A DNA stretch of 64,000 bases from a bacterium (lineage in GTDB: Bacteria > Patescibacteriota > CPR2 > UBA1875 > CAIMLA01), in NCBI GenBank assembly GCA_037129835.1, contig JBAXUE010000006.1, forward strand, positions 6,157 through 70,156, given 5' to 3'. The translations under genes were made by a program, and so were the position numbers. Positions 49 through 56,200 of the stretch are shown piece by piece. The stretch's first letter is position 1. Every line of letters begins with the position of its first letter. Under the pieces are notes generated by a model. That model was not told where the DNA came from, made no database searches, and worked only from the letters and a program-made list of their open reading frames with translations.

Positions 49-336
49 ATGAAATCATATTATGTCTATATACTATCGAATAACAGTAACAGAGTTTTTT
101 ACACCGGTATTACTTCCAATCTGGTGAGAAGAGTATACGAGCACAGAAATAAACTTGTGGAGGGTTTTACTAGTAAATACAATCTAAGCAAACTAGTCTA
201 TTTCGAGGATACGGCTAGCGTTGAAACTGCTTTAGAACGAGAAAAGAAGCTAAAGAAGTGGAGACGCAACTTCAAGATAAATCTAATTTCCAAGACCAAC
301 CCAGATTGGCATGATTTGTACGATGATATAGTATGA
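49..336 (+). CDS. GIY-YIG nuclease family protein (small stand-alone, COG2827-like)
   Basis: 95-aa ORF with an N-terminal YYVYIL...GIT.N..RR..EH motif typical of the GIY-YIG catalytic core. The reading frame is clean. Confidence 0.8.
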   Translation: MKSYYVYILSNNSNRVFYTGITSNLVRRVYEHRNKLVEGFTSKYNLSKLVYFEDTASVETALEREKKLKKWRRNFKINLISKTNPDWHDLYDDIV

Positions 337-26712: not shown

Positions 26713-26789
26713 GACCCGGTAGCTCAGCTGGTTAGAGCGCCGCCCTGTCACGGCGGAGGTCGCCGGTTCGATCCCGGTCCGGGTCGCCA
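26713..26789 (+). tRNA. tRNA-Asp (anticodon GTC)
   Basis: GACCCGG-TA-GCTC-AGCTGGTTA-GAGC-G-CCGCC-CTGTCAC-GGCGG-AGGTC-GCCGG-TTCGATC-CCGGT-CCGGGTC-G-CCA. Cloverleaf with a GGTTCGATCC T-arm. Confidence 0.88.
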
Positions 26790-28385
26790 AATATCACGGA
26801 GTTCGCTCATAGGGTCATATTCTGCCTCTATGTGGCTAAAATTGACTGGTTCGGAAATATCCTTTCCGATTTCAGTCATTTTTTTATTTTCCGAACTTTC
26901 ATTTGTTTGTTTTACCGCTCTTTGGAGCGTCTGCATAGCTATCGTATATTCAATTATGGGTTTGCCATTCTCTATTTTGATGCTCTCGCATATGTCCTTC
27001 AGAATCTTCTTTTGGACTTCTGGGACCTTTAGTTTGAACTTCTCCTGGGCTACTTCCGCTCTCTGGAATATCTTCACTCCGATTTGTTGCTTTTGCTCGG
27101 AGCTTTTGGACAATCCGTCTATCTCACTTAGAATATCGTCCTTCTGTTTGGTATATTGAGCGAACCGCTCTCTGTAATTCGCATCAGAGATTAACTCGTC
27201 CAATCTGTCCTCATAGAGCCTATCTAGTCTTTTCTCCATCCGCTGGTGGTTCGCCTGAAGTTCAGTGAGTTTATGCTCTTTGTATTCAGTATCTTCTGTG
27301 TGGCTCAACTTGAGCGACTTTACTATCCAATCGGCTATCCTCGGATTCTTTACTATCAACTCCCCGAACGATTCGGCTATTTCATCAAGGACCACCTCTT
27401 CCTTCATCCATATTCGCTCATCACACTTGGTATATTTGTAGTTACAGTGTCCATATATGTGGCCTTTGTGCTCTTCCCAGCTGATTACGCTTCCGCATTT
27501 ACCACATCGCATCATCCCCTTGAAGAGAAAGTTTCTCTTGGTGATATGAGGGACAGCCCTACCTGTTAGCTTCTCCTGGACTAGATTATATAGTTCCTCA
27601 CTGATAAGTGGTTCGTGTTTACCCTGATATACGACTCCATTCCAACGAAATTTGCCTGTGTAATACAGATTGTGGAGTATTTCCCAGGTTAGCCTTTTTT
27701 TTATCACATTCCCATATTTGCTTCTTAGGCCATCTTTCTCCATCTCTATTGCTAGAGACTCTGTAGAATACAATCCACTGGCATATAGTTTGAACATCTT
27801 TGTGATGTATGGAGCGAACTTTTCATCTGGAAGGTGAACTCTTCGGCCCCTGGGGCCTTCAGACCTATAGCCGAGTGGCGGTTGTGAGGGGTATTCGCCT
27901 TGGGATATCTTCTCTTTTTGACCCTTCTTGACCTCTTCAGAGAGATTTTTAATATAATTCTTCGCGAGGACTACATTTAAATCCCAATTCAGAACATCCT
28001 GGGATTTTGAGTTCTTATGGAGAATTATCCCGTTCTTTACTGAATGTATTTGCCTTTCTGGGTCTTCATTCAACCAGTCATCTATTAGCTGATACTCCTT
28101 AAAGTTCCTAGTAACTCTATCCACCTTTTCAAATATCAGGATATTTATCTTTTTCTTTTTGGCGAATTCTAGCATCTCTGCGAATTTCTTTCTAAGAACC
28201 TTCCCACTTGCTGACTCAGAAACCGCGAACATTTTCTTTACCCGAAAATTCTTTTTTTCTGCATACTCTCCCAATATCTTCTCTTGAGCGGGTAATGAAT
28301 AACCGCTTTCTTCTTGTTCCTTTGTTGATACTCTGGCATAGATTAATGCTTCCATATCTTCTCCTTTCCTTTTACCACTATTCAA
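26748..28385 (-). mobile_element. Large serine recombinase (integrase/transposase type); its 3' end overlaps the tRNA-Asp 3' end
   Basis: N-terminal resolvase domain with the catalytic Ser in YARVSTKEQ, a recombinase domain, a Cys-rich zinc ribbon (CGKCG…HCNYKYTKC), and a coiled-coil. The likely start is the internal MEALIY… (~28355). The last 14 codons read through the tRNA-Asp acceptor and T-arm. Confidence 0.82.
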
Positions 28386-28569: not shown

Positions 28570-28875
28570 CTAATTCTTACTGTATCTAACTAAAGATAAA
28601 TATTCGGCCAGAATTATTTTTTCCAGTTTTTTCCAAAGGGCTCTATCCATCCAGAACAGTGTGCAGTATTTTTTTCTTGCGTGATTATAATACTGAGGGG
28701 GGCCCACCCAGCGGATTATCTCTCCAGTTATCTTGTCGGTCTTGCTATAAATACGAAAACCCTTTATTTTAAGACCTAGATAGTCAAGGGTCACTAGAGC
28801 AACGATATTATTCTCTGGTGACTCTTTTCTTTTGATATCAAACTGGAAGCTATCAAGGTTCAATTTATCTGTCAT
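28570..28875 (-). CDS. Hypothetical protein (island cargo)
   Basis: 101-aa ORF that overlaps the next gene by 11 nt. Confidence 0.35.
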   Translation of the reverse strand: MTDKLNLDSFQFDIKRKESPENNIVALVTLDYLGLKIKGFRIYSKTDKITGEIIRWVGPPQYYNHARKKYCTLFWMDRALWKKLEKIILAEYLSLVRYSKN

Positions 28876-29137
28876 CCCAGCTCCCTTCTTCCAAAAATTG
28901 GATTAATGATTTTTCAGTCCAAGCCTTCAATGCTTGTTTTGCTTCTTCGGTTGTCGTATAAGTCCCAGAGTTATTGATTCCACGTCCATAGGTCACCTTC
29001 AGCGTTACTTCTGACACGTTATCTCGCACGAGATTCGCATAAACTCTCTTTCTTTTTGTTGTCGCGATAGTTTGCCTTGTCCCGTCTTTATTCAGAATCT
29101 TTAGTTGAATTTTGGGCACGATGTTTTTTAGCTTCAT
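28865..29137 (-). CDS. Hypothetical protein (island cargo)
   Basis: 90-aa ORF with coupled overlaps to both neighbours. Confidence 0.35.
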   Translation of the reverse strand: MKLKNIVPKIQLKILNKDGTRQTIATTKRKRVYANLVRDNVSEVTLKVTYGRGINNSGTYTTTEEAKQALKAWTEKSLIQFLEEGSWDDR

Positions 29138-29300
29138 TTGAGTTCACCTCCTCTCCGTAAAGTAGATTTTCAAAGAGGTCGGTTAACTGATTAGCCATAA
29201 GAAAGGCTTGTTCTTCCGTTAGGGAGAGACCATAATCTTCTAGAACTATTTGGCGAAGTTCTACGACTAAATCTTTAGATAAAAATTGACCTCTTGTCAT
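29088..29300 (-). CDS. Hypothetical small protein (island cargo)
   Basis: 70-aa ORF. Confidence 0.3.
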   Translation of the reverse strand: MTRGQFLSKDLVVELRQIVLEDYGLSLTEEQAFLMANQLTDLFENLLYGEEVNSNEAKKHRAQNSTKDSE

Positions 29301-29348
29301 AAGGCCAATGGTAGATTAATAGAGCAGAGAGCTCTTGGACATTAAAAA

Positions 29349-30128
29349 CTAGCTTATCTTGTCTGGGATAATCCTCTCATACCTTTTTATGGTTTTACCC
29401 ACCAAATCTATGTCTAGTGAATATTTATTATATTTATTCACTATTTGCTTATTTGTGAGCCCCCTTAAATGGTCTTGATATATCTCAAAGTGAAGCTCTG
29501 GACTTAGCAAGTAACTCTTTCTACCTGGTTGCTGGGGCTTTCCCTTCAAATATTCTTTTACTCCTGGCCATACCTTTCTGATGTCTTCAGGCGTTACATT
29601 TTTATGAATTTTAAGATAGTAGTAATCTGCTTCATCATTTCTAGTCTCTATCTGTATGAACACGCGGGCCTTTATTTCATCTGACGTAACATATTGCCAT
29701 AAATAACCGATTTCCTCACCACTAAGACTGTATTTCCTACCTAGCTCACCAGCTAGACCAGCCGTCTTCTTAACTGTTCCAGCAGCCTCCTCTAGTTTGT
29801 TAAATAGACCTGGGTATTCTTTTTTTCTGTTCTCCAGAGTCCTGTCATCCAGTTCGGTAGCAGTCTTTAAAAAATTGAGCAAGTAGTTAAAGTTGTTTCT
29901 ATCTTCTTTAGAGGTTAGGCCAACCTTTTTGCGTATTTCCTTAATGTCTTTTAGTAGTTCGGGGTTACTGTTTATCCTGTATATAAAATCTTTCGCAATA
30001 TTGTCCAGCGCTTTATTATCACTCAGTAAGATTAGTGACTCCTTATCGCTCTCGTTATAGGTGATCCCTTCTAACCCCTTTTTAGATTTGAAGTATCCTA
30101 TTCCTTCTTTGAATTCCTTCAGGTCCAT
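29349..30128 (-). CDS. Hypothetical protein (island cargo)
   Basis: 259-aa ORF with a charged, helical character. Confidence 0.4.
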   Translation of the reverse strand: MDLKEFKEGIGYFKSKKGLEGITYNESDKESLILLSDNKALDNIAKDFIYRINSNPELLKDIKEIRKKVGLTSKEDRNNFNYLLNFLKTATELDDRTLENRKKEYPGLFNKLEEAAGTVKKTAGLAGELGRKYSLSGEEIGYLWQYVTSDEIKARVFIQIETRNDEADYYYLKIHKNVTPEDIRKVWPGVKEYLKGKPQQPGRKSYLLSPELHFEIYQDHLRGLTNKQIVNKYNKYSLDIDLVGKTIKRYERIIPDKIS

Positions 30129-30394
30129 ACGTCTCCTATTCTCCCCTATATATTACCCTATTTCTGACCCCTCTTATAGATACTCTATAGGACTATGCTA
30201 GTTGTATGCTGATATCAGTGCCTACTCCTTCCGTAAGTTACGCACGACTTGCCAACTCGGCGATGTGGTGGTTTATGGGACTATACAGGGCTATGCCAAC
30301 TACCTTCCTTCCGATAGAGCACTTACCCCACATATTTCCATAACAGCTTGGCATCGGGCTGTCGGTGTGCAATAATCCCCTTCCGTGCATGGCA

Positions 30395-30412
30395 AAAAAT
30401 TGGTATAATGTA
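30395..30412 (+). promoter_or_regulatory. Extended -10 promoter (TGGTATAAT) plus RBS for the methyltransferase operon
   Basis: aaTTGGTATAATgtagaaaagAGGGGcaATG: a TGnTATAAT element ~20 nt upstream of a GA-rich RBS and the ATG at 30426. Confidence 0.5.
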
Positions 30413-30425
30413 GAAAAGAGGGGCA

Positions 30426-32258
30426 ATGAAAAAAACACTGGCAAAAAATTTTACACCTGTAAAAGCGGCGCATCATACGCCTCCTTATAGAATCCATAGA
30501 TACTTTGCAAGAAGGCCTTGGAATCTCTTTAGAGAACTAATTGAGAGCCTAACCAACGAGGGGCAAACGGTTCTCGATCCATTTTGTGGCGGGGGAGTAA
30601 CTGTTTACGAGGGAGTCACATCTAATAGAAAGGTGATCGCATCCGATTTAAACCCACTTTCTGTTTTTATAGTAAAAAATATGTTCCACAAAAAAATGAC
30701 TGAATTAATACGTATGGATTATGAGCGTATAATATCTAAACTTGAGCCAATTGTAGCTGAAACATTCGCAACAAATTGCCCCCACTGTGGGACAAAGGAT
30801 ATGGCCGGTTGGTATGAGCTAGTTCATACCTGCAATTGTGATCTTTGCGGTTCTGAAATAATCCTGAGCGATGAAAATAAGATTCGTAATGGTTTGTATA
30901 AATGTCAAAATTCTAAATGCACCTCACCGGGCGTGATTGTTGCGCGACAACCAAGACAAAAACCGATATATCTAAGTCTCAGTGGGCGATGCACAACTTG
31001 TAAGAAGGCGTATTCAATCCCTATGGATGAAAAGCTCGCCGCAAAGAATCTTAGGGGCATAAAAAAACTTCAGACAATCGTTAAAGATCAGGGTATAAAA
31101 GTTCTTTCTGAAACCATACCGCTGGATTGGGATAGGCAAAAGGAGGACCTCCTTGAAGCAAAAGGGTTCATGGGATTTGAAGACTTGTTTACTAAAAAGA
31201 ATCTGCTCATAAATAGTATCTTGCTCGATTTTATTAAGAATAATCACAGCGATAAGGAGTCATACGAAATATTGCGCTTCATTTTTAGCGACTCATTAAG
31301 AGATACAAATATTATGTCTTTCACTAATAAAAATTGGCAAAATGGTGCACCAACTACATGGGCAAAGCATGCTTACTGGATTCCTCCACAATTTTGCGAA
31401 GTCAACCCATTGAAGGCGATTCAGAGATCCTTTGGATCAATGAAGAAAACGATAGACTTTAACTCTGAATCTGGCTATGAGATGAAGTTAGCATCCCAAT
31501 ACTCTGATTTAAAAAAGAGTAGCAACCTGCTTATCAAGAGAGGTGTTGTAAGAGACCTTAATCTCCCAGCAGGTTCGATAGATATAGTAATAACAGACCC
31601 ACCCTATGGAAGCAATGTCCAGTATCTAGAACTTTCACACTTCTGGCATATGTGGAACCAAGACCTATATGAGGGAGGTTCATTAGATTTCTCAGAAGAA
31701 GCCATTGTGAATAGAAAGCAAAATTTTCTCAAAGCTAAGGGATATAAAGATTATGAAGATAACCTATTCTCTGTGTTTTCAGAGTGTCAAAGAGTTCTTA
31801 AAAAAGATGGTTTAATGGTAATGACTTTCAATAATAAGGATTTAAGAGCCTGGATAGCTTTACTGATTAGTATCTTTAGATCCGGCTTTCACTTTGAAGC
31901 AGATGGGATCACTTTCCAGGATGGCGTTGCCAACTATAAGCAAACTGCCCATACAAAAGCCAAGGGCTCCCCATATGGCGATTTTGTTTACCAGTTTGTT
32001 AATAAGAGTCATCCGAATAAGGACAATATAACTGCAAAAGGAAGAGAAGAACTCGTGATATATATTAGGGAACGAATTAATAATGCAGTGGCAAAATATC
32101 AAGCAGCGTCAGTAGATAGAAATGTTATTTTGATAGAGCTTTTTAACGAGATTGTGCCAGAGATAGAGGTTTTTGTTAAATTATCTAGCCAGGATGAGGT
32201 AGTGAATGATCTTTACGAAGCATTTTGTAGTGGTCACCTGGAGTTGCTATATGCCTGA
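30426..32258 (+). CDS. DNA methyltransferase (N6-adenine/N4-cytosine type, alpha-like motif order X-I…TRD…IV) with an internal Cys-rich zinc-ribbon segment
   Basis: Motif X HRYFARRPWNLFRELIE, motif I VLDPFCGGGVT, a Cys-rich insert (CPHCG…CNCDLCG…C..C), and motif IV ITDPPYGSN. Confidence 0.85.
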   Translation: MKKTLAKNFTPVKAAHHTPPYRIHRYFARRPWNLFRELIESLTNEGQTVLDPFCGGGVTVYEGVTSNRKVIASDLNPLSVFIVKNMFHKKMTELIRMDYERIISKLEPIVAETFATNCPHCGTKDMAGWYELVHTCNCDLCGSEIILSDENKIRNGLYKCQNSKCTSPGVIVARQPRQKPIYLSLSGRCTTCKKAYSIPMDEKLAAKNLRGIKKLQTIVKDQGIKVLSETIPLDWDRQKEDLLEAKGFMGFEDLFTKKNLLINSILLDFIKNNHSDKESYEILRFIFSDSLRDTNIMSFTNKNWQNGAPTTWAKHAYWIPPQFCEVNPLKAIQRSFGSMKKTIDFNSESGYEMKLASQYSDLKKSSNLLIKRGVVRDLNLPAGSIDIVITDPPYGSNVQYLELSHFWHMWNQDLYEGGSLDFSEEAIVNRKQNFLKAKGYKDYEDNLFSVFSECQRVLKKDGLMVMTFNNKDLRAWIALLISIFRSGFHFEADGITFQDGVANYKQTAHTKAKGSPYGDFVYQFVNKSHPNKDNITAKGREELVIYIRERINNAVAKYQAASVDRNVILIELFNEIVPEIEVFVKLSSQDEVVNDLYEAFCSGHLELLYA

Positions 32259-33594
32259 AGCCAAGCCTATACGAAAGAGTGAAGAGAAAAAGGTCTTATT
32301 GCCAGAGGAAAATAAGACCCTTTTTTGCGAATACGAATCTGTGATTAAGAGCCTAGAAGGTAAATTCAACCCCGTTTGGGACGATGAGTTCACTGATCTG
32401 GTCAACTTCAAAAAAAATAAGAGTCTCCCAATACATCGATGGTTTGACTATAAAGAAGGTTACTCTGAAGATCTTGTTAATAAACTACTTGATTATGCGA
32501 AAGTAAAAAAAGGGGCATTGGTTTTAGATCCTTTTGTAGGTGTTGGGACCACACTGGTGGTGGCGCAAAGCCGAGGATTAAAGTCAATCGGTCTTGATAT
32601 TAATCCGGTTGCTTCATTTGCCTCTAAAGTTAAAACCGCAGTTTATTCTGACAAAGAAATAGTTGAGTTAAAGAAAACACTTAATAATATTAATAACCAC
32701 CTAATAAGGACAAAAAACATTCCAAAGTTTAGTAGGTTGGAATCAATTTTTACCAAAAAACAACTCGAGCAGATACTATCGATTAAGGGCTTCTATGAGA
32801 GTATTCCTAGTGAAAAGATTGCAGGCATATTTAAACTGGCCTACCTATCAATTATTGAAGATGTCTCAAATAGGGTCAAGGACGGTAATGGTATTAAAAT
32901 CTCTAAAACTAAAACTCAGATTGAGGATGTTATTGGCAGGTATACCTTAAAAGTAAAGAGTATGATTGAGGATATTGAGGGCAATAATTGCAAAGGAGAA
33001 TCAATTGTCATCCATGGCTCTATTCTGGAAGACTCTGTTTTTAAGAAAATTAGTAACGAAAAGGTTAGCACAACGATATTCTCACCGCCTTATGCCAACT
33101 GTTTTGACTATTGTGAAGTATACAAAATGGAGATTTGGTTAGGCGATTTCGTAAAAGAGTATTCAGATTTTACTAAATACAGAGAGAAGGCGATAAGATC
33201 ACATGTAAATTCTAAATTTTCTCATGATTTGATGCGAACTAATCAGGAAATTAGAGTGATCTCAGAATTAATCGGAACATATAACCTGTGGAATAAAAAA
33301 ATACCAATGATGTTGCGTGGATACTTTGATGACATGGAAGAAACTCTTAGCAGAATTTCCTCCATGAGCCTCCCGGGAGCAACCTGTTCTATCGTTGTCG
33401 CAAACTCAGTTTATAAGGGTGTTGTAGTCCCTACAGATCTACTGTTGGCAGACATAGCTGAACATCATGGTTTTAAAGTAGATAAAATTATTGTAGCAAG
33501 ACGAATAAGATCTTCTTCTCAGCAGATGACAGAAGTGGGTAAAAATAGTAAGCTTATGAGAGAAAGCATTATTATACTGAGGAAAAATGATTAA
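32251..33594 (+). CDS. Second DNA methyltransferase of the same family (SPPY motif IV)
   Basis: Motif X IHRWFDYKEGYSEDLV, motif I VLDPFVGVGTT, motif IV FSPPYANCFDYCE. The ATG at 32251 overlaps the upstream stop (ATGCCTGA), so the two genes are translationally coupled. The six-frame ORF starts at 32206. Confidence 0.85.
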   Translation: MPEAKPIRKSEEKKVLLPEENKTLFCEYESVIKSLEGKFNPVWDDEFTDLVNFKKNKSLPIHRWFDYKEGYSEDLVNKLLDYAKVKKGALVLDPFVGVGTTLVVAQSRGLKSIGLDINPVASFASKVKTAVYSDKEIVELKKTLNNINNHLIRTKNIPKFSRLESIFTKKQLEQILSIKGFYESIPSEKIAGIFKLAYLSIIEDVSNRVKDGNGIKISKTKTQIEDVIGRYTLKVKSMIEDIEGNNCKGESIVIHGSILEDSVFKKISNEKVSTTIFSPPYANCFDYCEVYKMEIWLGDFVKEYSDFTKYREKAIRSHVNSKFSHDLMRTNQEIRVISELIGTYNLWNKKIPMMLRGYFDDMEETLSRISSMSLPGATCSIVVANSVYKGVVVPTDLLLADIAEHHGFKVDKIIVARRIRSSSQQMTEVGKNSKLMRESIIILRKND

Positions 33595-36328
33595 GCTAGA
33601 CGCGATTTTTTCAAATAAAATCTCTGAATGGAAAGAGCTTGAAGCCTTCCTAGAAAAAATTGAGGACAATGTTACGAAGGGCGAAATCTTTGAGCAATTT
33701 GTCTATTTATATTTGTATCTTAAAAAGGATTATTACCAAATAAAAGATCTTTACAGAAGAAAAGACATCCCGTCAGACTTAGTGGCCAAACTTAAGCTTG
33801 AGAAGAGCGACTACGGCGTAGACGGAGCGTTTGTAATGGAAGACAATTCGATAGTAGCCTATCAGGTCAAATTTAGATCCAACAGGGTTCCGCCCACCAT
33901 CTCCGAGCTCGCGACCTTTTGGACAGAGGCTGAATACGCTGATCTGAGGTATGTAATAGCAAACTGCGTTAACCTGCCAAGGCCGGCTAATAAAAAAATT
34001 GAGAGCTATCAAATTCTCGTGGATATTTTTGACGACTTAGAAGACAAATTTTGGGATGACCTTCACTCACTTGTTATAGGATCAAAGATAGAAAAAATTG
34101 AGTTGGTCCCAGATGCTCATCAAAAAAGAATAATATCAAATACAGTTAAGGGTTTTAGGGAGAACGACCGTGGCAAAATAATTGCAGCTTGTGGGACGGG
34201 AAAAACCCTTACCTCTCTTTGGATAACCGAAGAACTAGAGACAAAGAAGATTCTCTTTTTAGCCCCTAGCCTGGGTCTTATAAAACAGACTCTTGAATCT
34301 TGGACAAGTAATACCAAGAACAAGTTCAACTACATTTGTGTTTGTAGTGACCAAACTGTGGTCTCTGACCAGGAGATTGATACGAGTGATATAGCCATCA
34401 GCGAAGTTGACTTCCCTGTCACTACAGACAAAGACAATATACTAACATTCCTATCACAGCCATATGACAAAAAAATTATATTTTCCACATATAACTCTTC
34501 AAGTATAATCGCCGATGCAATAGAGGGTTCAGACTTCGAATTTGATCTTGTTATCTTTGATGAGGCCCATAGAACCGCCGGTCAAGGTGATTCTGAGATG
34601 TTTTCTTTAGCGCTACACAATGAGCGAATTAACTCTGCAAAAAGGCTCTTTATGACGGCCACCGAAAGACTTGTTCGCCCTTGGATATTAGAGAAGGCAA
34701 AACAGGCTGATCGAACCATATTTTCAATGGATGATGAAAATACATACGGCCCTATTTTTGACAGGTATACATTCGGGGAAGCTATCAAGGACGGCGTAAT
34801 AAGTGACTACAAAATTATTCTTACCGCTATCGATACAACCGAAGTTCTAGAGTGGATTGAAAATAATCAACTCTTAGTTACGGAAGAAAAAGGAACTGAG
34901 GTAACCCTAGCAGCGGACAATATTTTTAAACAGATGGTCCTGGCGAAAGCCATAAAAGAGTTCTCGTTGGCAAAGATTATTACTTTTCACTCTTCCATCA
35001 AGAGGGCCCGATCCTTTGCATTTGGGTCTAATAATGAATCTGTCAGTCTAAAGGATATTCTTGATTTAGCTTCCGTCTCTTTTGAGACTGAAAAAGTTTT
35101 TATTGATAGCGTTGACGGTAGTATGCCGGCTGGTATGAGGAAGCAAAAATTAAGAGATTTTGAAAACGCTGAATTCTCAATAATTACAAATTCTAAATGT
35201 CTTACAGAGGGAATTGATGTTCCAGTGATTGATAGTGTGTATTTTGTTGACCCAAAAAACTCGCTTATTGATATTGTCCAAGCTTGTGGCAGAGCTCTAA
35301 GAAAGCCCAGAAACAAGAAGATAGAGAAAACGGCCTATTTTATTGTTCCGCTACTAATTAATCACGAAGACGGTCCCGAAAATAAATATGAGACCCTAAT
35401 GAACTTAATACAGGCGCTTAAGGGACAGGATGAAAGACTTGCTGATTGGATCGACAAGCTGAACATGAGTGTGGCCAGAGGTGGAAAGGGTCCTGAGGTT
35501 GATCCTCCAATAGGTATTTCCCTACCAGAGAAGGTAGATTTAAAGAAGTTCATGCATGATATCCATTTACAGATTGCAGAATCTAGCTATGGCCCTCGCC
35601 AGAGTATTCTTAAAAAAGGGCACAGCAGGAGAAGTGATGCGGATAGCTTTTTTAAGCCGCTAGGAGACATGACATATGAGAACTTCAAGACCAATGTGGC
35701 AGATGTCACTTTGGCTAAATTCAACTCATTGGAAGAGGTAAGGTCATCTAACGAAATCTATATTAACCATAACAACATATCTCATACTAAAAGACTTGGG
35801 CTTATTGAAGAGGCCGACTCCCGAAAGTTTAAATTGACACCCCTAGGTGTTGATTACAAGGAAGGGAAGGCACGATTTGAGGAATTGTTTAGGAGTGCAA
35901 TGTTAAATTATAATTCCTATTCTGCCGAGAATCTTAATCCGTATAAAGCCTTCCTAAACATCCTGGTAGAAACAGGAAAGTTAAACTATATAGAATTTTT
36001 GTATGCTGTTTACCGCATGCCTGATCTCGGTCCTGATTCATACGCTGAAACCTTTGAAATTATTGAAAGTTTAAGGTCCGACTATCCAAATTTAAATCTG
36101 TTATCTAATAGCAACAGAGAGAAAATCTTATCAGAATTAAATGAAAGGTATTCTCTAAACTATAGTTACGTTGAAGTCTGGGGAAGCACCACAGCAAAAA
36201 ATAAATATATGTATTTCCGAAACCACTTGGCCGTATTTGATCAACTCGAGTCAAACAATCAAGAAATATATGTTATTGATAACATGAAACAGGAGCTTAT
36301 AGATTTACTAGAGATTAACTTTTCATGA
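33587..36328 (+). CDS. Mrr-cat (PD-(D/E)xK-like) restriction-nuclease domain fused to an SF2 DEAH helicase, with a ~300-aa C-terminal domain of unknown function
   Basis: N-terminal DYGVDGAFVMEDNSIVAYQVKF is Mrr-cat-like (D…QxK). Walker A AACGTGKT, DEAH box LVIFDEAHR, and helicase motif VI VQACGRALRKPR. The start overlaps the MTase-2 stop (ATGATTAA). Confidence 0.8.
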   Translation: MIKLDAIFSNKISEWKELEAFLEKIEDNVTKGEIFEQFVYLYLYLKKDYYQIKDLYRRKDIPSDLVAKLKLEKSDYGVDGAFVMEDNSIVAYQVKFRSNRVPPTISELATFWTEAEYADLRYVIANCVNLPRPANKKIESYQILVDIFDDLEDKFWDDLHSLVIGSKIEKIELVPDAHQKRIISNTVKGFRENDRGKIIAACGTGKTLTSLWITEELETKKILFLAPSLGLIKQTLESWTSNTKNKFNYICVCSDQTVVSDQEIDTSDIAISEVDFPVTTDKDNILTFLSQPYDKKIIFSTYNSSSIIADAIEGSDFEFDLVIFDEAHRTAGQGDSEMFSLALHNERINSAKRLFMTATERLVRPWILEKAKQADRTIFSMDDENTYGPIFDRYTFGEAIKDGVISDYKIILTAIDTTEVLEWIENNQLLVTEEKGTEVTLAADNIFKQMVLAKAIKEFSLAKIITFHSSIKRARSFAFGSNNESVSLKDILDLASVSFETEKVFIDSVDGSMPAGMRKQKLRDFENAEFSIITNSKCLTEGIDVPVIDSVYFVDPKNSLIDIVQACGRALRKPRNKKIEKTAYFIVPLLINHEDGPENKYETLMNLIQALKGQDERLADWIDKLNMSVARGGKGPEVDPPIGISLPEKVDLKKFMHDIHLQIAESSYGPRQSILKKGHSRRSDADSFFKPLGDMTYENFKTNVADVTLAKFNSLEEVRSSNEIYINHNNISHTKRLGLIEEADSRKFKLTPLGVDYKEGKARFEELFRSAMLNYNSYSAENLNPYKAFLNILVETGKLNYIEFLYAVYRMPDLGPDSYAETFEIIESLRSDYPNLNLLSNSNREKILSELNERYSLNYSYVEVWGSTTAKNKYMYFRNHLAVFDQLESNNQEIYVIDNMKQELIDLLEINFS

Positions 36329-36414: not shown

Positions 36415-36810
36415 CTATTTTGCCTCCCCCTGGGTGGGGTGTGGGTATCCGTCCTCTATGCCGTTTATGATTGATTTCATCTTCTTACCCACTATTTTCT
36501 CTATATTTTCATAGTAGACGTTCTTGTCGTGTTCATAGTCATACTCTTCATCTATAAATGTCTTTGCTTCCAGTCGCTTCGCCTTGGGGACGTAAGCTAG
36601 CAATTTCTCTGCATTCTCTTTATCTACCCTTATCACTTCTCTGAGTGTCTTGACACTTACCCAGATGAGGCTAAATACATCTCGTTCAGCAATCTTGGCA
36701 ACTGTTTCACCAAACTTCTTGCTTATACTCTTAGTCCCCGCCTGGTAGCCAACCGCCAGTGCTAGTATCGGTAGACCAAAAAACAATAGAAAGTCTCTAT
36801 ACATTTTCAC
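36415..36810 (-). CDS. Hypothetical membrane-anchored protein
   Basis: 131 aa with an N-terminal TM helix. Confidence 0.4.
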   Translation of the reverse strand: MKMYRDFLLFFGLPILALAVGYQAGTKSISKKFGETVAKIAERDVFSLIWVSVKTLREVIRVDKENAEKLLAYVPKAKRLEAKTFIDEEYDYEHDKNVYYENIEKIVGKKMKSIINGIEDGYPHPTQGEAK

Positions 36811-36834
36811 TCCCTTCTTATTATTTAGTAGTTC

Positions 36835-37485
36835 TTATAACCACTTTTCGCAACCTGTTGGGACAAGGTCCCTACCTGCGATCAGAAGCATCTCCATCAT
36901 ATCGTGTTGCTGTTTCGCCCCTGCTAGTGACTGGTTCATCAAGGCAGTTCTCTGTGCTATCGACATCCCGGAATAAGCAGGATTATTTGGATCCATTGCC
37001 GCATTGCGAATACTGATAATTTGATTTTGGTAGCTGTTTTCTTCTGCTACGACTTGTGGCTGATATTTATTATAACCTGTCTGCATTAGCCCGAGACAAA
37101 ATTGCTTCATTTCGGCTGCATAGGCTGCATTTGCGTCGACTGTTGGTGTGCTGGGTGCAGCTGGCGCCTGAGTATTTACCCCTGAGGCTGGTTTATAAGT
37201 TGTGTCATAAGGAGTTGTTTCTGTGGGAGTCGTGGCTTGGGGCGTCTCTGCTTTAACTTCTTCAGTCTTTGGAGTTTCTACGGTTCCTGTTTTCTTTACC
37301 TCGCCTTTTACCTCACTTTGACCAGTGCCTTTATCTGTGGGCTTATGACTGTCTTGATAGTATTTATATCCAAAGACCCCAGTTGCAGCAAAAACGACTA
37401 TCGTTAGTGCTATCGCAAATGGGAGTAGCTTCTTTGCTTTCTTTTTATCAAGTCCCTGCCAAATCTTCTTAGGATTTAGTTTCAT
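36835..37485 (-). CDS. Hypothetical secreted protein with a Thr/Pro-rich linker
   Basis: N-terminal TM helix, a T/P-rich low-complexity stretch, and a C-terminal helical domain. Confidence 0.45.
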   Translation of the reverse strand: MKLNPKKIWQGLDKKKAKKLLPFAIALTIVVFAATGVFGYKYYQDSHKPTDKGTGQSEVKGEVKKTGTVETPKTEEVKAETPQATTPTETTPYDTTYKPASGVNTQAPAAPSTPTVDANAAYAAEMKQFCLGLMQTGYNKYQPQVVAEENSYQNQIISIRNAAMDPNNPAYSGMSIAQRTALMNQSLAGAKQQHDMMEMLLIAGRDLVPTGCEKWL

Positions 37486-37558
37486 AAAACCCTTTCGTTA
37501 GGCTGTTTATACCACAAATAGACCAAAATATCAATCCCTTTTATTCTTAATTGTATAA

Positions 37559-37942
37559 TTATTTGTTTGACCGTGTTACGACAGTTTTCAAATCCTTATC
37601 GCAGGCATAGCGCAGCGAAATTTCTGATTCTTTAAGAAACTCTTCCTTGCTATATGTCGTGAATATATTATCTATTTTATTCATAGCTTGCTTGTGGGCC
37701 TTTTTGTCTTTTATATCTTCATTCACTATACCTTCTATGCAGGCTCGGACATATTGAATCCTTTTCTCATATTTATCGGAGGAGTAACTGACAGCCTGGA
37801 GGATGCGATTCTTTGCATCAGCATTTTTGGCTATAGCTATCTTTGTTTTAAGTTTCTGGTCAAATCTCCACCTAGCAATCATATAGCCCGCAACTAACCC
37901 TATCGCCAAGGCGATTGATAAAAACGCAATCTCGGTATACAT
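37559..37942 (-). CDS. Hypothetical membrane-anchored protein
   Basis: 127 aa with an N-terminal TM helix. Confidence 0.4.
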   Translation of the reverse strand: MYTEIAFLSIALAIGLVAGYMIARWRFDQKLKTKIAIAKNADAKNRILQAVSYSSDKYEKRIQYVRACIEGIVNEDIKDKKAHKQAMNKIDNIFTTYSKEEFLKESEISLRYACDKDLKTVVTRSNK

Positions 37943-37969
37943 AAGGCTCCTTTCTCTGTGGGCTAAATT

Positions 37970-38248
37970 TTAGTCCCACATCCCTTCATCTTCGTATTTG
38001 TTACTCTTAAAGCATTTAGGACAGGTCTTATAATCCCACCTCACTAGCTTGTGGTCTCCGCAATCAGGACAGATGGGGCAATCGCCAGGCCAACCATCAA
38101 TCTTCGCATCACCTCTTACTATGACGATTTCATTCTTTTTATTGCAGTAATACGGGGTTTGATAGGATAGGCTTATTCCTGACACCCCGCTGAAGAAACC
38201 ATTCCTGTATCCACAATCACCGCACTTATAAGAGATTATCGAGCCCAT
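37970..38248 (-). CDS. Zinc-ribbon protein (hypothetical)
   Basis: CGDCGY…CPICPDCG…CPKC gives four CxxC-type pairs. Confidence 0.45.
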   Translation of the reverse strand: MGSIISYKCGDCGYRNGFFSGVSGISLSYQTPYYCNKKNEIVIVRGDAKIDGWPGDCPICPDCGDHKLVRWDYKTCPKCFKSNKYEDEGMWD

Positions 38249-38570
38249 TTATTGCCTCTCTATAAACGCTATTACTCCTAACAAGACAAGGAAGAAGACA
38301 GCCATTAGGATAAACGTTTTTAATTCCATTTCATTAGCCTATAAAGTTGATAAAACCAGTTTTATTAGCGTAGAACCAGAATAGCATTACTGCGATAGCG
38401 AGAACTGTTGCACCAATACTTGCCCACAAATTTTTCTTCCAGGGTAGAAAATACATAAAAGCTATTAGTGCGATTACTTCTATCAATTGTCTGGCTCCTT
38501 TTGCCCAATCCTAGCATTGCTTTTTGGGTCTGTTAAATATCTTTGAAAATATTCTCATTTCATCAAACGC

Positions 38571-39044
38571 CTATACTATTTGTCCGTAGAATATCACCCA
38601 GCCGACTAATGAACCCAGCCACAATGCCATTACACCGATTCTATATAATTTTCTACCGTTTTTCAGTCCCATTGCTTCAAACAATTCATCTATTGATTCA
38701 TTCGCAGACTTATCTTTTCCGTAGTTTGTATGATTTGTATCTTTCGGTAGCGCATTTATACCAGCGATTAACGAAATTGCTAATGGGACTAAGGGGTCTT
38801 TATGAAATACACTTCCGAGATATGGGAGTGAAAGTCCCAGGAAAAACATAATCGGTATCCATATTTTGAATTGCTTCTTATCCCAAACAAAATAGTTTGA
38901 GGTAAGAGAAATAATGCTTGAGAGAATAAAGACCGCAACTAATACAGCTACTAATCCTATGAAGAATTCCACAAAGGACCCCTTTCTTTTGCCCAATCCT
39001 AGCATAAAATAGCCCAAAATGCAATGTTTAGTGAGTTTCAGCAA
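38571..39044 (-). CDS. Hypothetical multi-TM membrane protein
   Basis: 157 aa with four hydrophobic helices. Confidence 0.45.
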   Translation of the reverse strand: MLKLTKHCILGYFMLGLGKRKGSFVEFFIGLVAVLVAVFILSSIISLTSNYFVWDKKQFKIWIPIMFFLGLSLPYLGSVFHKDPLVPLAISLIAGINALPKDTNHTNYGKDKSANESIDELFEAMGLKNGRKLYRIGVMALWLGSLVGWVIFYGQIV

Positions 39045-53213: not shown

Positions 53214-56200
53214 TCATTTCCCAATAAACCTATCACCGAGCTTCCCAAAGAACTGATTTAGTTTCCCAGTCCAAGCGAAAGTTTCTTCTAATGATTTAAG
53301 AATCAGTTGAAGGATTGATTTCTCTTTAGTTGGTGTTACAAAGGTATAATCTTGAGATTCAGTAATATTAGTTCTTTTGTCTTTAGAAATCATCTTATAA
53401 TGATAAGACGAAGCAGGTTTGAGACCTTTAATTATAACGGTATGTGAGTTATTAAGTGACGTGTCTTCATTTGACTCATTTGAATAATCTCCCCCAAGGA
53501 TCCCTTCACCGTATTTCACTTGTGTAGACGCAGGCTTATTGGTCTGCCAAGAAACTATAATAGAAGACGTAGTGTCGTTTTCTCCCATCGGTAGGATGTC
53601 TACTTTGGCATTGGTAATCTTCGGTCCTTCGGTATCTAAGGGCGTTCTTACTATCTTGTCAGTATCTGCGACTTCATTACCAGTTTCGTCTTTGGCAAGG
53701 ATTTGATAGTGATACTCTTGGTTATCTAGAAGGTTTTCAATCTTAACTTGATGGACTTTAGATACTCCGGTAGTCCCTTTCTTCTCGCCATAATTGGTAG
53801 TGGTACCCCAGTTGATGATTGTTTCAGTATCGACGTTGGTTTCCCAAGCTACTGTAACAGAGTAAGGAGTGATATCTTTCACTGACATGTTAGATATCTT
53901 TGGTTTTAAAACAGCGGTAAATGAGTATTCTTGAGAAGTATACTCTACCTCGTTAGCATCTTTAACTCTAACTCTATAGTAGTATTTGGTACCGGGTATT
54001 AGACCTTCGATCACCACTACATGAGAGCCGACTAGGTCATTATTACCTGCAGCGCCGTCATAGACTCCAGATGTAGTGGAGTAATCTACCCATGAGGTGG
54101 TAGGACTCTCTGTCTGCCAGACTATTTGTGCTGTTGTGGCTGTAATATTACGTTCTGCGACATTTGATGATGCTGGGGCTAGAGTGAACTGAGCTGAATC
54201 AAATGATTTGGTCTTGAATGTTGCAAATTCACCGGCTGGGTATTCGGCAAGATAGCCATCTTCTGAAATAGATTTGATCTTATAGGTATAGGTTCTAGCC
54301 GATCTTAATCCCTTGATCACCACTTTATGGTTTCTTGGACTTGAAGAAAGTGCAGCAGGTTCGACACCAGCTGTTCCACCTTGAGCATCGTCGCCTGGTT
54401 GTTTTTGCAATTGATACTCCACAAAAGCAGATGAGGCGTCAAGATTTGTGGCCCAAGCTATAGTAGTTGTAGAAGTGGTGGATGATACTGCGCCTGCTGT
54501 GATATTGAAGCCGGTGGTGGTGAGAGAAGGAAGCTGTGCTCCTTCTGCTGATACTGGGTTACCCAATGCGTTACCCGATGCAATAATATAATCATATGTA
54601 GTATTTGGACTAAGTCCAAAGAGCTCTACTGTGTGGTTTTGAACCATCCCCAGTCCTCTGCTATTATCACCTACACCTATTTGCTTATATGGATCACCGC
54701 TTCCAGATTTTCTAAAAGATACCATAGAGTCGCAATCTTGATCCGTTGTCCAAGTTACAGTGGCCGTTGCTACACCAACACTAGTTAAAATTGCTTTAAG
54801 CCCATTATGTTGATCTAGAATACTTGGTTTCGCTATGTATGGGTTAAGAGAAACTGATACAATCTTGCCGTCACTGCCAATATCGGGTTTCGATTCATTG
54901 AAATAGTTCGGATTGATGATGGTGTTTTGGTTTGGTGCGTTGTACTTATAAGTATCTCCAGAATCATCAGAAGCGGTAACGTGATAATAAAAGAACTTAT
55001 CTGACTCTGCCTGAGACCTAGGAATAAGATCCATATAATAGTTATTTGTTAGGGCTATCTCTTTGTCTGCATCATAAAGAGGGTTTGGATACTGGGTAGT
55101 ACAAGAAGGCAATAAAATAGTTGTTGTACCATTCTGACATATTTGTTCCCAAAGACTTCCGTCATTGATCGAGCGATATATCTTATACTCCTTAAAATCG
55201 TTAACCCCATTTCTAAGTGGAGTGGCTATCCTGGCCCAAGTGATGATATTTCTTCTGAAGTTGGTACCATCATCATGGATATCTTTAACCTTAACTAGCG
55301 AAGGAAGAGCCGGAGCAGTAGCATCTGGGGTGGTATCCCAACCAAGGTGAAGGGTACCAGGAGCAACAACAGAAAGACCAGAAAAAAGATTAGATTGAGA
55401 CGGTTGATTCGGTACAACAGTATTATCCTGGGCCCAAACACGATAATAGTAAGTAGTGGAATCCGTCAGGTTTATGTCAGTTATGGTGTGCGGAACTGTT
55501 CTGTCGTCTGGTGTCGGGGTAATATTTATAGTCTGTATTTTTGTAGCAGTATTTACTCTGACCCAACAATCTGATACTTTTTCTCCTGGGTTACAATTCC
55601 CGGCGATATTGGTGGTTGTCCTGTATACTTCGTATTTAACGATTTTATTAGAATATGAACTTGAACCAGTAAATGTTACTTCGGCTGTATGTCCGACAGC
55701 ATTATTTGTATTTGGGTCTCCCTTTGTGGTCACAACATCGATGTTTGCGGGGACACTAGGAACTTTTGAAGAATAAGTTACAACACTTGAAGTTTCAGAT
55801 AAGTCTGAAAGTACTGATTCTTTGGGAACACTATCATAGGCAGAAACGCGATAATAGTAATTAGTAGTATCGGCTAAACCTTCATCATTAAAGCTTGTAG
55901 CTGTAGTGGTTTTGATTGGAGCAATATCCCATGGACCGAGATCCGAAGTAGACCGATAGACATGATAGGTAATAGTCCCAGGTACGATATCTTCACTTCT
56001 GGCTTTGTAATCATTCGATGCACCCCAAGAAACATTAATCATCTGACTCTCGTTGGAATTATCTAGCCCTTGTGCGTTTGCAACCACATTGTTTGGCACA
56101 GTTGGTGCCGTAACATCTGGAGTGCCTGGAGTAGTTCGGGCAAAGTTCTGGTCTGGGGAAACAAAATTTGAATCACCAGATGCAGGTACGAGTGAAGTCT

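What the first reader, a model, noticed from the sequence alone, without database searches (positions are those of the whole stretch)
30426..36328. Translationally coupled trio: two alpha-class DNA methyltransferases + an Mrr-cat nuclease–SF2 helicase fusion, a non-canonical R-M/defense module
The three genes overlap start and stop by 8 nt each (ATGCCTGA, ATGATTAA), so they are almost certainly a single unit. Both MTases have the permuted motif order X–I…IV, one with DPPY and one with SPPY. The first carries a Cys-rich zinc ribbon inside its target-recognition region. The third protein combines an N-terminal Mrr-cat nuclease (DYGVDGAF…AYQVK), a complete SF2 helicase core (GTGKT, DEAH, QACGRALR) and an uncharacterised 300-aa C-terminus. 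That nuclease-plus-motor layout resembles Type I HsdR or the Type ISP N-terminal half. But the window has no HsdS, no gamma-class HsdM, and no beta-class Type III Mod. Instead there are two stand-alone MTases of a different family. A defence enzyme assembled from these parts is, to my knowledge, not a standard described class. Possibilities include a split Type ISP-like system or an ATP-dependent Type IIS-like system with one MTase per strand. It sits on an apparent integrated element.
Basis: partly seen in the sequence, partly recalled or inferred. Interest (0 to 1): 0.8.

Follow-up and report, generated by a model that had tools for sequence, protein, structure and literature searches.

The report
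Three-gene motor-driven restriction-modification system
Three overlapping genes encode two DNA methylases and a large enzyme that joins the nuclease and ATP motor of the Type ISP restriction enzymes to a DNA-reading head shaped like that of FokI-type (Type IIS) enzymes; the same trio recurs in many bacteria and archaea, and I found no published description of it.

Summary
M1 (30426-32258), M2 (32251-33594) and R (33587-36328) overlap by 8 nt each.

- **Methylases:** both have motif I before motif IV. M1 has DPPY and M2 has SPPY, each invariant in 40 distinct trios. M1 has an invariant four-Cys ribbon.
- **R, aa 30-630:** homologous to the Type ISP enzyme LlaBIII (E 5e-67), and all nuclease and ATPase motifs are invariant.
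- **Co-occurrence:** 54 of 54 loci that could be assessed carry M1, M2 and R together, in three gene orders, across bacterial and archaeal phyla. One locus has M1 and M2 fused. Relatives of R without this C-terminus have no M1 or M2 nearby.
- **Exclusions:** there is no HsdS, HsdM or Mod gene in the window.

Best reading: an ATP-dependent, Type IIS-like restriction-modification system. R finds an asymmetric site itself, then translocates and cuts, and each methylase protects one strand. The function is inferred, not shown. It is a new variant of a known kind, of moderate to high interest.

The parts
30348..30376 (+). Promoter-like site upstream of M1 (TTGGCA, 17 nt, AATAAT, with TG). An extended -10-like TGGTATAAT also lies at about 30401-30409.
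   Evidence: Consensus scan only and the sequence itself. This is weak evidence.
30426..32258 (+). M1: a 610-aa amino-methyltransferase with motif I (FCGGG, aa 53-57) near the N-terminus and motif IV (DPPY, aa 391-394) near the C-terminus. An insert of about 280 aa lies between them. Probably makes m6A.
30837..30920 (+). Four-Cys zinc-ribbon motif inside the M1 insert (C138, C141, C160, C165).
   Evidence: All four Cys are invariant in 40 of 40 trios and in the 113-sequence alignment. The modelled region is rich in beta strands. Metal binding is inferred.
32251..33594 (+). M2: a 447-aa amino-methyltransferase with motif I (FVGVG, aa 95-99) before motif IV (SPPY, aa 278-281). Probably makes m4C.
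   Evidence: Pfam PF01555 at 8.5e-12. Full-length match to PADLOC MTase_II PDLC03224 at 1.3e-80. SPPY is invariant in 40 of 40 trios. The product is identical to the public protein P0121.
33587..34081 (+). R aa 1-165: Mrr-family PD-(D/E)xK nuclease domain (E36, D75-x-G-x-D79, Q93-x-K95).
   Evidence: Aligns with the LlaBIII nuclease. The residues equivalent to LlaGI E38, D74, D78, Q92 and K94 are essential or important for cleavage in LlaGI (PMC2790908). All are invariant in the family except D79, which is D in 39 of 40.
34094..35476 (+). R aa 170-630: SF2 helicase-like ATPase of the Type ISP kind (GTGKT 203-207, DEAH 325-328, TATE 357-360, QACGRALR 565-572).
   Evidence: LlaBIII 4xqk at E 4.8e-67 and LlaGI 5ffj at 1.3e-62. 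PADLOC REase_MTase_IIG at 6e-99, covering only the first 653 of 1646 profile positions. Pfam ResIII and Helicase_C. The motifs are invariant.
35477..35656 (+). R aa 631-690: linker modelled with low confidence. It contains a conserved basic motif; R681 and S683 are invariant.
   Evidence: AF2 pLDDT is 45-75. Conservation.
35657..36328 (+). R aa 691-913: C-terminal DNA-recognition domain built of tandem winged helices, like those of Type IIS enzymes.
26713..28385 (.). Likely left end of the island that carries the trio: tRNA-Asp (26713-26789, + strand) abutting a large serine recombinase (26748-28385, - strand).
   Evidence: ARAGORN. Pfam Resolvase, Recombinase and Zn_ribbon_recom. No att repeat was found.

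Best explanation
This is a self-contained three-gene restriction-modification system, carried on a small integrated island.

**R** is a single-chain, ATP-dependent restriction enzyme with three parts:
- an N-terminal Mrr-type nuclease;
- a Type ISP-type SF2 double-stranded DNA translocase;
- a C-terminal reading head with the tandem winged-helix fold of Type IIS recognition domains. This takes the place of the methylase and TRD half of a Type ISP enzyme.

**Inferred mechanism.**
1. The reading head binds an unmethylated asymmetric site.
2. Binding switches on the motor, which pulls DNA through at the expense of ATP.
3. The nuclease cuts non-specific DNA away from the site, most likely when the enzyme collides with a second enzyme or stalls.

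**M1 and M2** protect the host as the two methylases of Type IIS systems do, one on each strand of the asymmetric site. M1 (DPPY) probably makes m6A and M2 (SPPY) probably makes m4C. They work side by side and possibly as a heterodimer.

**Shown:** the anatomy, the homologies, the fold assignment and the strict co-occurrence of the three genes. **Inferred:** site-specific binding by the C-terminal domain, translocation, the mode of cleavage, and the base and strand assignment of each methylase.
For: - **Nuclease and motor.** R aa 30-630 is homologous to LlaBIII and LlaGI (E 4.8e-67 and 1.3e-62). The match covers only the N-terminal 40% of the Type ISP profile.
- **Catalytic residues.** The nuclease residues that are critical in LlaGI (PMC2790908) and all ATPase motifs are conserved in the family, and most never vary.
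- **Co-occurrence.** 54 loci carry the C-terminal domain together with M1 and M2: 28 as M1>M2>R, 20 as R> <M2<M1 and 6 as R>M1>M2. The 6 loci with the domain but no methylases all end within 900 bp after R. The 23 relatives that lack the domain have no M1 or M2.
- **Varied flanks.** The genes on either side differ from locus to locus.
- **Natural fusion.** An M1-M2 fusion, P0316 (1043 aa), sits directly next to an R gene.
- **Different methylases.** DPPY in M1 and SPPY in M2 are each invariant in 40 of 40 trios.
- **Precedents.** Type IIS systems pair two methylases for the two strands of an asymmetric site (PMC3874165). The NTP-dependent LlaJI system also has two methylases for an asymmetric site (PMC12707154). 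The MboII system pairs two methylases with different specificities on one target (reference cited in PMC4417176).
- **Independent expression.** The convergent R/M arrangement in 20 loci means R can be expressed separately from the methylases, as in Type II systems.
Against: - There are no experimental data for any member of the family.
- The link between the C-terminal domain and Type IIS heads rests on fold alone. Sequence identity is 8-14% and TM-scores are 0.34-0.46, with no Pfam match and no PDB profile match.
- Related multi-winged-helix modules also occur in BrxA, DndG and SspB, which work inside larger complexes.
- None of the three proteins has a hypervariable TRD. The family is collinear and its putative recognition helices are invariant. 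That is unusual for restriction-modification systems and would also fit a docking role for the domain.
- A conserved motif in the linker, modelled with low confidence, could be a contact for a partner protein.
- The rule that SPPY means m4C has exceptions.
Confidence: 0.65

Rival explanations
1. Holoenzyme model, as in Type I and Type III systems. Sequence specificity lies in M1 and/or M2. The C-terminal domain of R, or the conserved linker motif before it, docks R onto a DNA-bound methylase complex, and that complex licenses the motor and the nuclease.
For: - The genes are translationally coupled in the window.
- R's C-terminal domain is conserved and not hypervariable.
- A conserved linker motif is modelled with low confidence.
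- Multi-winged-helix modules occur in complex-bound proteins such as BrxA, DndG and SspB.
- Both methylases carry large inserts that could act as TRDs, one of them with a Zn ribbon.
Against: - The only strong structural matches of the domain are autonomous Type IIS recognition domains.
- In 20 loci R is convergent with the methylase genes, and in 6 it lies upstream of them. Co-translation is therefore not required.
- Two different methylases are unnecessary in known holoenzyme systems that use a single specificity module.
Confidence: 0.2
2. Literal split Type ISP system. The methylase and TRD half of a LlaGI-like enzyme has been separated into stand-alone proteins. The behaviour is otherwise the same as Type ISP: one strand is methylated, and cleavage strictly requires head-to-head sites.
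For: The nuclease and motor are true homologues of LlaBIII and LlaGI.
Against: - M1 and M2 are permuted N6_N4 (PF01555) enzymes, not gamma-class methylases.
- They have no significant similarity to the methylase-TRD part of LlaBIII or LlaGI.
- There are two different methylases, with DPPY and SPPY.
- R keeps a DNA-binding domain of its own, of a different fold.
Confidence: 0.05
3. Not a classical restriction system. R might be a modification-dependent (Type IV-like) or repair or regulatory helicase-nuclease, and the methylases might be orphan or regulatory enzymes that merely travel with it.
For: - R gives weak PADLOC matches to Type IV enzymes and to PbeA over the helicase C-terminal core.
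- More distant relatives of R that lack this C-terminal domain have no methylase gene nearby.
Against: - Linkage of this particular C-terminal domain to M1 and M2 is strict, through three gene orders and a fusion.
- A methylation-dependent nuclease tied to its own methylases would be self-destructive.
- The trio sits on islands and in variable contexts typical of defence genes.
Confidence: 0.05

Closest known systems
[quoted passage not shown]
   Same: Both have an N-terminal Mrr-family nuclease with the same catalytic residues, followed by a homologous SF2 translocase. The match runs over R aa 30-630 at E 5e-67. An ATP-driven, translocation-coupled way of cutting is likely in both.
   Different: R has no gamma-class methylase and no Type ISP TRD in the polypeptide. 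Those parts are replaced by a tandem winged-helix head of about 220 aa. Methylation is carried out by two separate, unrelated N6_N4-family enzymes.
Type IIS systems (FokI; BpuJI; N.BspD6I/BstNBI; MboII with M1 and M2)
   Same: The recognition domain has the same fold as those of N.BspD6I, BpuJI and FokI. The reading head and the nuclease are separate modules. Two methylases serve the two strands of an asymmetric site, and they are occasionally fused, as in M.FokI.
   Different: The nuclease is of the Mrr type and is separated from the head by a complete ATPase motor. Cleavage is therefore expected to need ATP and to occur far from the site, not at a fixed offset. There is no sequence similarity to any Type IIS enzyme.
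LlaJI, LlaI and BsuMI (McrBC-related, NTP-dependent systems with two methylases)
   Same: All combine an NTP-driven motor nuclease that targets an unmodified asymmetric site through a separate DNA-binding module with two methylases that fully modify the site (PMC12707154).
   Different: Those systems use an AAA+ GTPase (McrB-like) motor with a McrC nuclease on separate subunits and a B3-type DNA binder. Here an SF2 motor, an Mrr nuclease and a winged-helix head lie in one chain.
CglI and NgoAVII (ATP-dependent Type II-like enzymes)
   Same: Both recognise an asymmetric site through a dedicated domain and use an SF2 helicase-like ATPase that is needed for cleavage.
MANTIS (Gao_RL) and BREX type 3
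   Same: These are methylation-based defence systems with a helicase-nuclease or helicase component. M1 shares partial similarity with the PglXI and DUF1156-type methylases, and BrxA shares the tandem winged-helix fold.
   Different: No AAA+ ATPase, PglZ or BrxC gene, and no stand-alone BrxA gene, is present or conserved nearby. The MANTIS effector is a SauUSI-like PLD enzyme. R did not match any such PADLOC model beyond a marginal BrxHI match (E 3.6e-4).

Membership tests
Type ISP R-M enzymes | N-terminal Mrr-family nuclease (E ... D-x-G-x-D ... Q-x-K) | tested here: met
   E36, D75, D79, Q93 and K95 align with LlaBIII and with LlaGI E38, D74, D78, Q92 and K94. All are invariant in the family except D79, which is D in 39 of 40.
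Type ISP R-M enzymes | SF2 helicase-like translocase homologous to LlaGI and LlaBIII | tested here: met
   phmmer against PDB sequences gives 4xqk at 4.8e-67 and 5ffj at 1.3e-62 over R aa 30-631. PADLOC REase_MTase_IIG scores 6e-99.
Type ISP R-M enzymes | The same polypeptide carries a gamma-class adenine methyltransferase and a C-terminal TRD | tested here: not met
   The homology stops at R aa 630, which is profile position 653 of 1646. R has no methylase domain or motif, and its C-terminus is a winged-helix domain.
Type ISP R-M enzymes | One-strand methylation; ATP-driven translocation; cleavage on collision between head-to-head sites | not testable with these tools
   This needs biochemistry or a methylome.
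Type IIS R-M systems | Autonomous recognition domain of the FokI/BpuJI/BspD6I fold, separate from the cleavage domain | tested here: met
Type IIS R-M systems | Two methyltransferase activities, one for each strand of an asymmetric site | tested here: inconclusive
   Two different methylases (DPPY and SPPY) are always present and are once fused. Their strand and base specificity could not be tested.
Type IIS R-M systems | ATP-independent cleavage at a fixed short distance from the site | not testable with these tools
   An invariant Walker A, DExH and motif VI in R argue for ATP dependence. That would place the system outside classical Type IIS.
Type I R-M systems | HsdS specificity subunit, gamma-class HsdM, and an HsdR-family motor subunit | tested here: not met
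   No Methylase_S or N6_Mtase match among the window ORFs. No such gene is conserved next to the trio. The EcoAI HsdR model scores 59 bits against a cut-off of 550.
Type III R-M systems | One beta-class Mod (motif IV, then TRD, then motif I) and a Res with an N-terminal helicase and a C-terminal nuclease | tested here: not met
   Both methylases have motif I before motif IV. There are two methylases, and the nuclease of R is N-terminal. The Pfam ResIII match covers only the helicase core.
BREX / DISARM / MANTIS | Signature partner genes (PglZ, BrxC/BrxL; DrmA/DrmB; MtsA/MtsB AAA+ loader) | tested here: not met
   PADLOC matches are limited to the methylase cores (PglXI at 3e-31, partial). None of the partner families is in the window or in the related loci.
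Type IV (modification-dependent) enzymes | No cognate methyltransferase; a reader domain for modified bases | tested here: not met
   R is strictly linked to two methylases in 54 of 54 loci. Its C-terminal domain matches readers of unmodified sites.

The most novel reading that the evidence does not exclude
The trio defines a class of ATP-dependent restriction-modification enzymes that has not been classified and is spread across Bacteria and Archaea. In it a FokI-like, modular reading head directs a Type ISP translocase-nuclease, and a pair of strand-specific methylases protects the host. It would be a natural bridge between Type IIS and Type I/ISP enzymes. Because the recognition helices are invariant, the whole family may share one recognition sequence across phyla.
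Probability: 0.45. Interest if true: 0.7.

Novelty: new variant of a known kind. Interest (0 to 1): 0.6.

Why it matters
- **Modularity.** It would show that the Type ISP nuclease and motor form a portable module that works without a fused methylase. A reading head and a protection strategy of the Type IIS kind can be attached to it instead. That links two restriction enzyme types so far treated as separate.
- **A simpler model enzyme.** A single-chain enzyme with a small autonomous reading head would be a simpler system than LlaGI for studying how site recognition switches on a DNA translocase.
- **A possible engineering scaffold.** The head could in principle be exchanged.
- **Annotation.** Automated tools probably mislabel these genes. 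R matches a "Type IIG/Type I RM fusion" model over only 40% of that model's length, and public records call it a DEAD/DEAH helicase. The family is therefore likely to be overlooked in defence-system surveys.

Tried and rejected
**Searches that found nothing.**
- A genome-contig scan with the single R protein found nothing. An alignment was needed.
- The afdb50 fold library was unavailable.
- Pfam at E up to 10 and a profile search of PDB sequences with the C-terminal domain gave nothing relevant.
- tblastn of the C-terminal domain against the plasmid and phage collections found no match.
- The small ORFs flanking the trio have no Pfam or PHROG match.
- No att-like direct repeat of the tRNA-Asp end was found.

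**Analyses that were uninformative.**

**Identities considered and rejected.**
- MANTIS (Gao_RL), BREX type 3 and DISARM were considered because M1 resembles PglXI and DUF1156-type methylases and the C-terminal domain resembles BrxA. They were rejected for lack of all partner genes.
- MhoVII, a fused M1-M2 Type II system, is an ordinary Type II system with YhdJ-type and D12-type methylases.
- Three small proteins that seemed to be stand-alone copies of the domain were examined. The one whose contig I looked at (P0447) starts at the contig edge, so it is probably a cut R gene of a divergent clade.

**Literature.** Five full-text searches found no description of this architecture. REBASE could not be queried.

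**Not attempted.** I did not try to infer the recognition site from k-mer depletion, because there is too little host sequence.

Full report
**Observation.**
- M1 is 30426-32258 (610 aa).
- M2 is 32251-33594 (447 aa from the ATG at 32251). This product is identical to a public MAG protein, P0121.
- R is 33587-36328 (913 aa).
- The junctions read ATGCCTGA and ATGATTAA, so each overlap is 8 nt. Shine-Dalgarno-like GGAG and GAGG motifs lie inside the upstream gene.
- A promoter-like site precedes M1. This is weak evidence.

**The methylases.**
- Both match the N6_N4 family (PF01555) in permuted order. The N-terminal part, around FxGxG, matches the C-terminal part of beta-class models. The DPPY or SPPY region matches their N-terminal part.
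- M2 matches a PADLOC Type II methylase model over its full length (1.3e-80). M1 matches another (9e-40), and partly matches the PglXI and DUF1156-type methylases.
- In 40 distinct trios, DPPY (M1) and SPPY (M2) never vary. Neither do C138, C141, C160 and C165 of M1. The additional Cys pairs in the window's M1 occur in only about 5 of 40 trios.

**R, N-terminal two thirds.**
- Residues 30-630 align with LlaBIII residues 32-660 (E 4.8e-67) and with LlaGI (1.3e-62).
- The PADLOC model of Type ISP-like fusions matches at 6e-99, but only over its first 653 of 1646 positions.
- Scores against HsdR and other curated families are far below their cut-offs (59 bits against 550).
- The LlaGI nuclease residues shown by mutagenesis to be essential (D74, D78, K94) or important (E38, Q92) (PMC2790908) correspond to E36, D75, D79, Q93 and K95 of R.
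- Those residues and the Walker A, DExH, motif III and motif VI sequences are conserved across the family, and most never vary.

**R, C-terminus.**
- The last 280 residues have no Pfam, PADLOC or PDB sequence match, yet they are well conserved.
- I modelled them from a 118-sequence alignment (pLDDT 87.5, pTM 0.80). The model is confident from R aa ~691 onward, and the secondary structure is that of repeated winged helices.
- Foldseek gives probability 0.99 or more only to N.BspD6I and BpuJI entries, including the BpuJI domain bound to its cognate DNA. The next hits are noise.
- The uncharacterised C-terminus therefore has the fold of Type IIS DNA-recognition domains.
- The relationship is at fold level only: identity is 8-14% and TM-scores are 0.34-0.46.
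- Related multi-winged-helix modules also occur in BrxA, DndG and SspB (PMC12839542, PMC10853773).

**Conservation of the trio.**
- R has thousands of full-length relatives of 905-990 aa. The best is 54% identical. Public sources call them only "DEAD/DEAH box helicase family protein".
- Their neighbourhoods show the same M1 (about 610 aa), M2 (about 445 aa) and R arrangement in unrelated contexts.
- A scan of one genome per species returned 80 loci. tblastn with the window's proteins gave the following:
  - 54 loci have the C-terminal domain together with M1 and M2. Of these, 28 are M1>M2>R, 20 are R> <M2<M1 (convergent) and 6 are R>M1>M2.
  - 6 loci have the domain but no methylases. All of them end less than 900 bp after R.
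  - 23 relatives lack the domain. None of them has M1 or M2.
- Carriers include Bacteroidota, Firmicutes, Saccharibacteria and other CPR lineages, Melainabacteria, Planctomycetota, Actinomycetota, Proteobacteria, Methanobrevibacter, Methanosarcinales and Woesearchaeota.
- No other gene is conserved next to the trio.
- One contig encodes a natural M1-M2 fusion of 1043 aa. Its M2 part is 52% identical to the window's M2, and a 956-aa R gene follows directly.
- A full search of 1.84 billion cluster representatives found the C-terminal domain in only 117 proteins. About 45 are full-length R proteins and most of the rest look like fragments.

**Context in the window.**
- The trio sits between small ORFs that have no family match.
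- A large serine recombinase abutting tRNA-Asp lies on one side. CYTH and IleRS genes lie on the other.
- None of the other ORFs of 90 aa or more is an HsdS, HsdM or Mod.

**Interpretation.** The parts fit together in one way. A reading head of the kind that recognises asymmetric sites goes with two different methylases, which is the standard solution for protecting both strands of an asymmetric site (PMC3874165). The head is joined to the nuclease and motor of enzymes known to translocate on DNA and to cut at a distance. I therefore read the trio as an ATP-dependent, Type IIS-like restriction-modification system built on a Type ISP chassis. NTP-driven enzymes that target unmodified asymmetric sites and carry two methylases have a precedent in LlaJI (PMC12707154). 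CglI and NgoAVII show another combination of a site reader with an SF2 motor.

**Shown and inferred.** The anatomy, the homologies, the fold and the genetic linkage are shown. Site-specific binding by the C-terminal domain, translocation, cleavage on collision, and the assignment of m6A to M1 and m4C to M2 are inferred.

**Main rival and open points.**
- The main rival is a holoenzyme in which the methylases supply specificity and the domain or its preceding linker docks R onto them.
- Two observations keep that rival alive. The family has no hypervariable segment, and its putative recognition helices are invariant. A conserved linker motif is modelled with low confidence.
- The same invariance could instead mean that the whole family reads one sequence.

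**Novelty.** Five full-text searches found no description of this architecture, and reading reviews and related papers added none. PADLOC has no model for the full R protein. REBASE could not be consulted, so an unpublished database assignment cannot be excluded. I rate the finding as a new variant of a known kind (restriction-modification), with interest 0.6.

Noticed in passing
loci L059-L086 (for example L075 9941-13423, L083 9926-13699, L077 2278-7725): More distant relatives of R share the Mrr nuclease and the ISP-type motor but have other C-terminal extensions of 250-600 aa. They have no methylase motif in the tail and no M1- or M2-like gene nearby. Most are not long fused Type ISP enzymes. 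The nuclease-motor module therefore seems to combine with several alternative C-terminal modules, and some of these proteins may be stand-alone enzymes.
   Followed up: partly
L088 6001-9132 (P0316): A natural fusion of M1 and M2 into one 1043-aa protein, directly followed by a 956-aa R gene. A PDDEXK_1 gene precedes it and an integrase gene follows.
   Followed up: yes
L089 5-940 and 1064-2929 (P0447; also P0446, P0463): A divergent clade of the C-terminal domain (24-28% identity) in which the otherwise invariant 'NHNNVSHT' helix reads GNNTASML or GHNTSALL. In L089 it lies next to a 621-aa N6_N4 methylase. The gene starts at the contig edge, so it is probably a cut R gene. This clade might have a different specificity.
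   Followed up: partly
window 26713-28385: tRNA-Asp (+ strand) overlaps the 3' end of a 545-aa large serine recombinase gene (- strand), which probably marks the integration site of the island carrying the trio. No att-like repeat of the tRNA end was found up to 40.3 kb.
   Followed up: partly
window 28570-30128 and 36415-39044: Eight small ORFs (90-259 aa) flanking the trio on the - strand have no Pfam or PHROG match. A perfect 20-nt direct repeat (CTTTTGCCCAATCCTAGCAT) lies at 38498 and 38986.
   Followed up: no
window 1437-9089 (-) and 53214-62531 (-): Two giant ORFs of 2550 and 3105 aa carry fibronectin type III, purple-acid-phosphatase N-terminal and glycine-rich domains, so they are probably surface proteins. 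Together with the low G+C content and the CPR-like nearest relatives of the trio, this hints at an uncultured host with a small genome. NCBI calls the record 'MAG: bacterium'.
   Followed up: no
window 30777-30788 and 30990-31001 (M1 C118/C121 and C189/C192): The window's M1 has two extra CxxC pairs around the invariant four-Cys ribbon. They are shared by only about 5 of 40 homologues and may form a second, lineage-specific metal site.
   Followed up: partly
window 33587-36328: The window's own 913-aa R protein was not returned at 100% identity from the protein collection (best hit 54%), although its M2 neighbour is there (P0121). A Logan contig, L087, carries the same trio, cut within R.
   Followed up: no
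window 49-336 (+): A small stand-alone ORF with a GIY-YIG nuclease domain at the left edge of the window.
   Followed up: no
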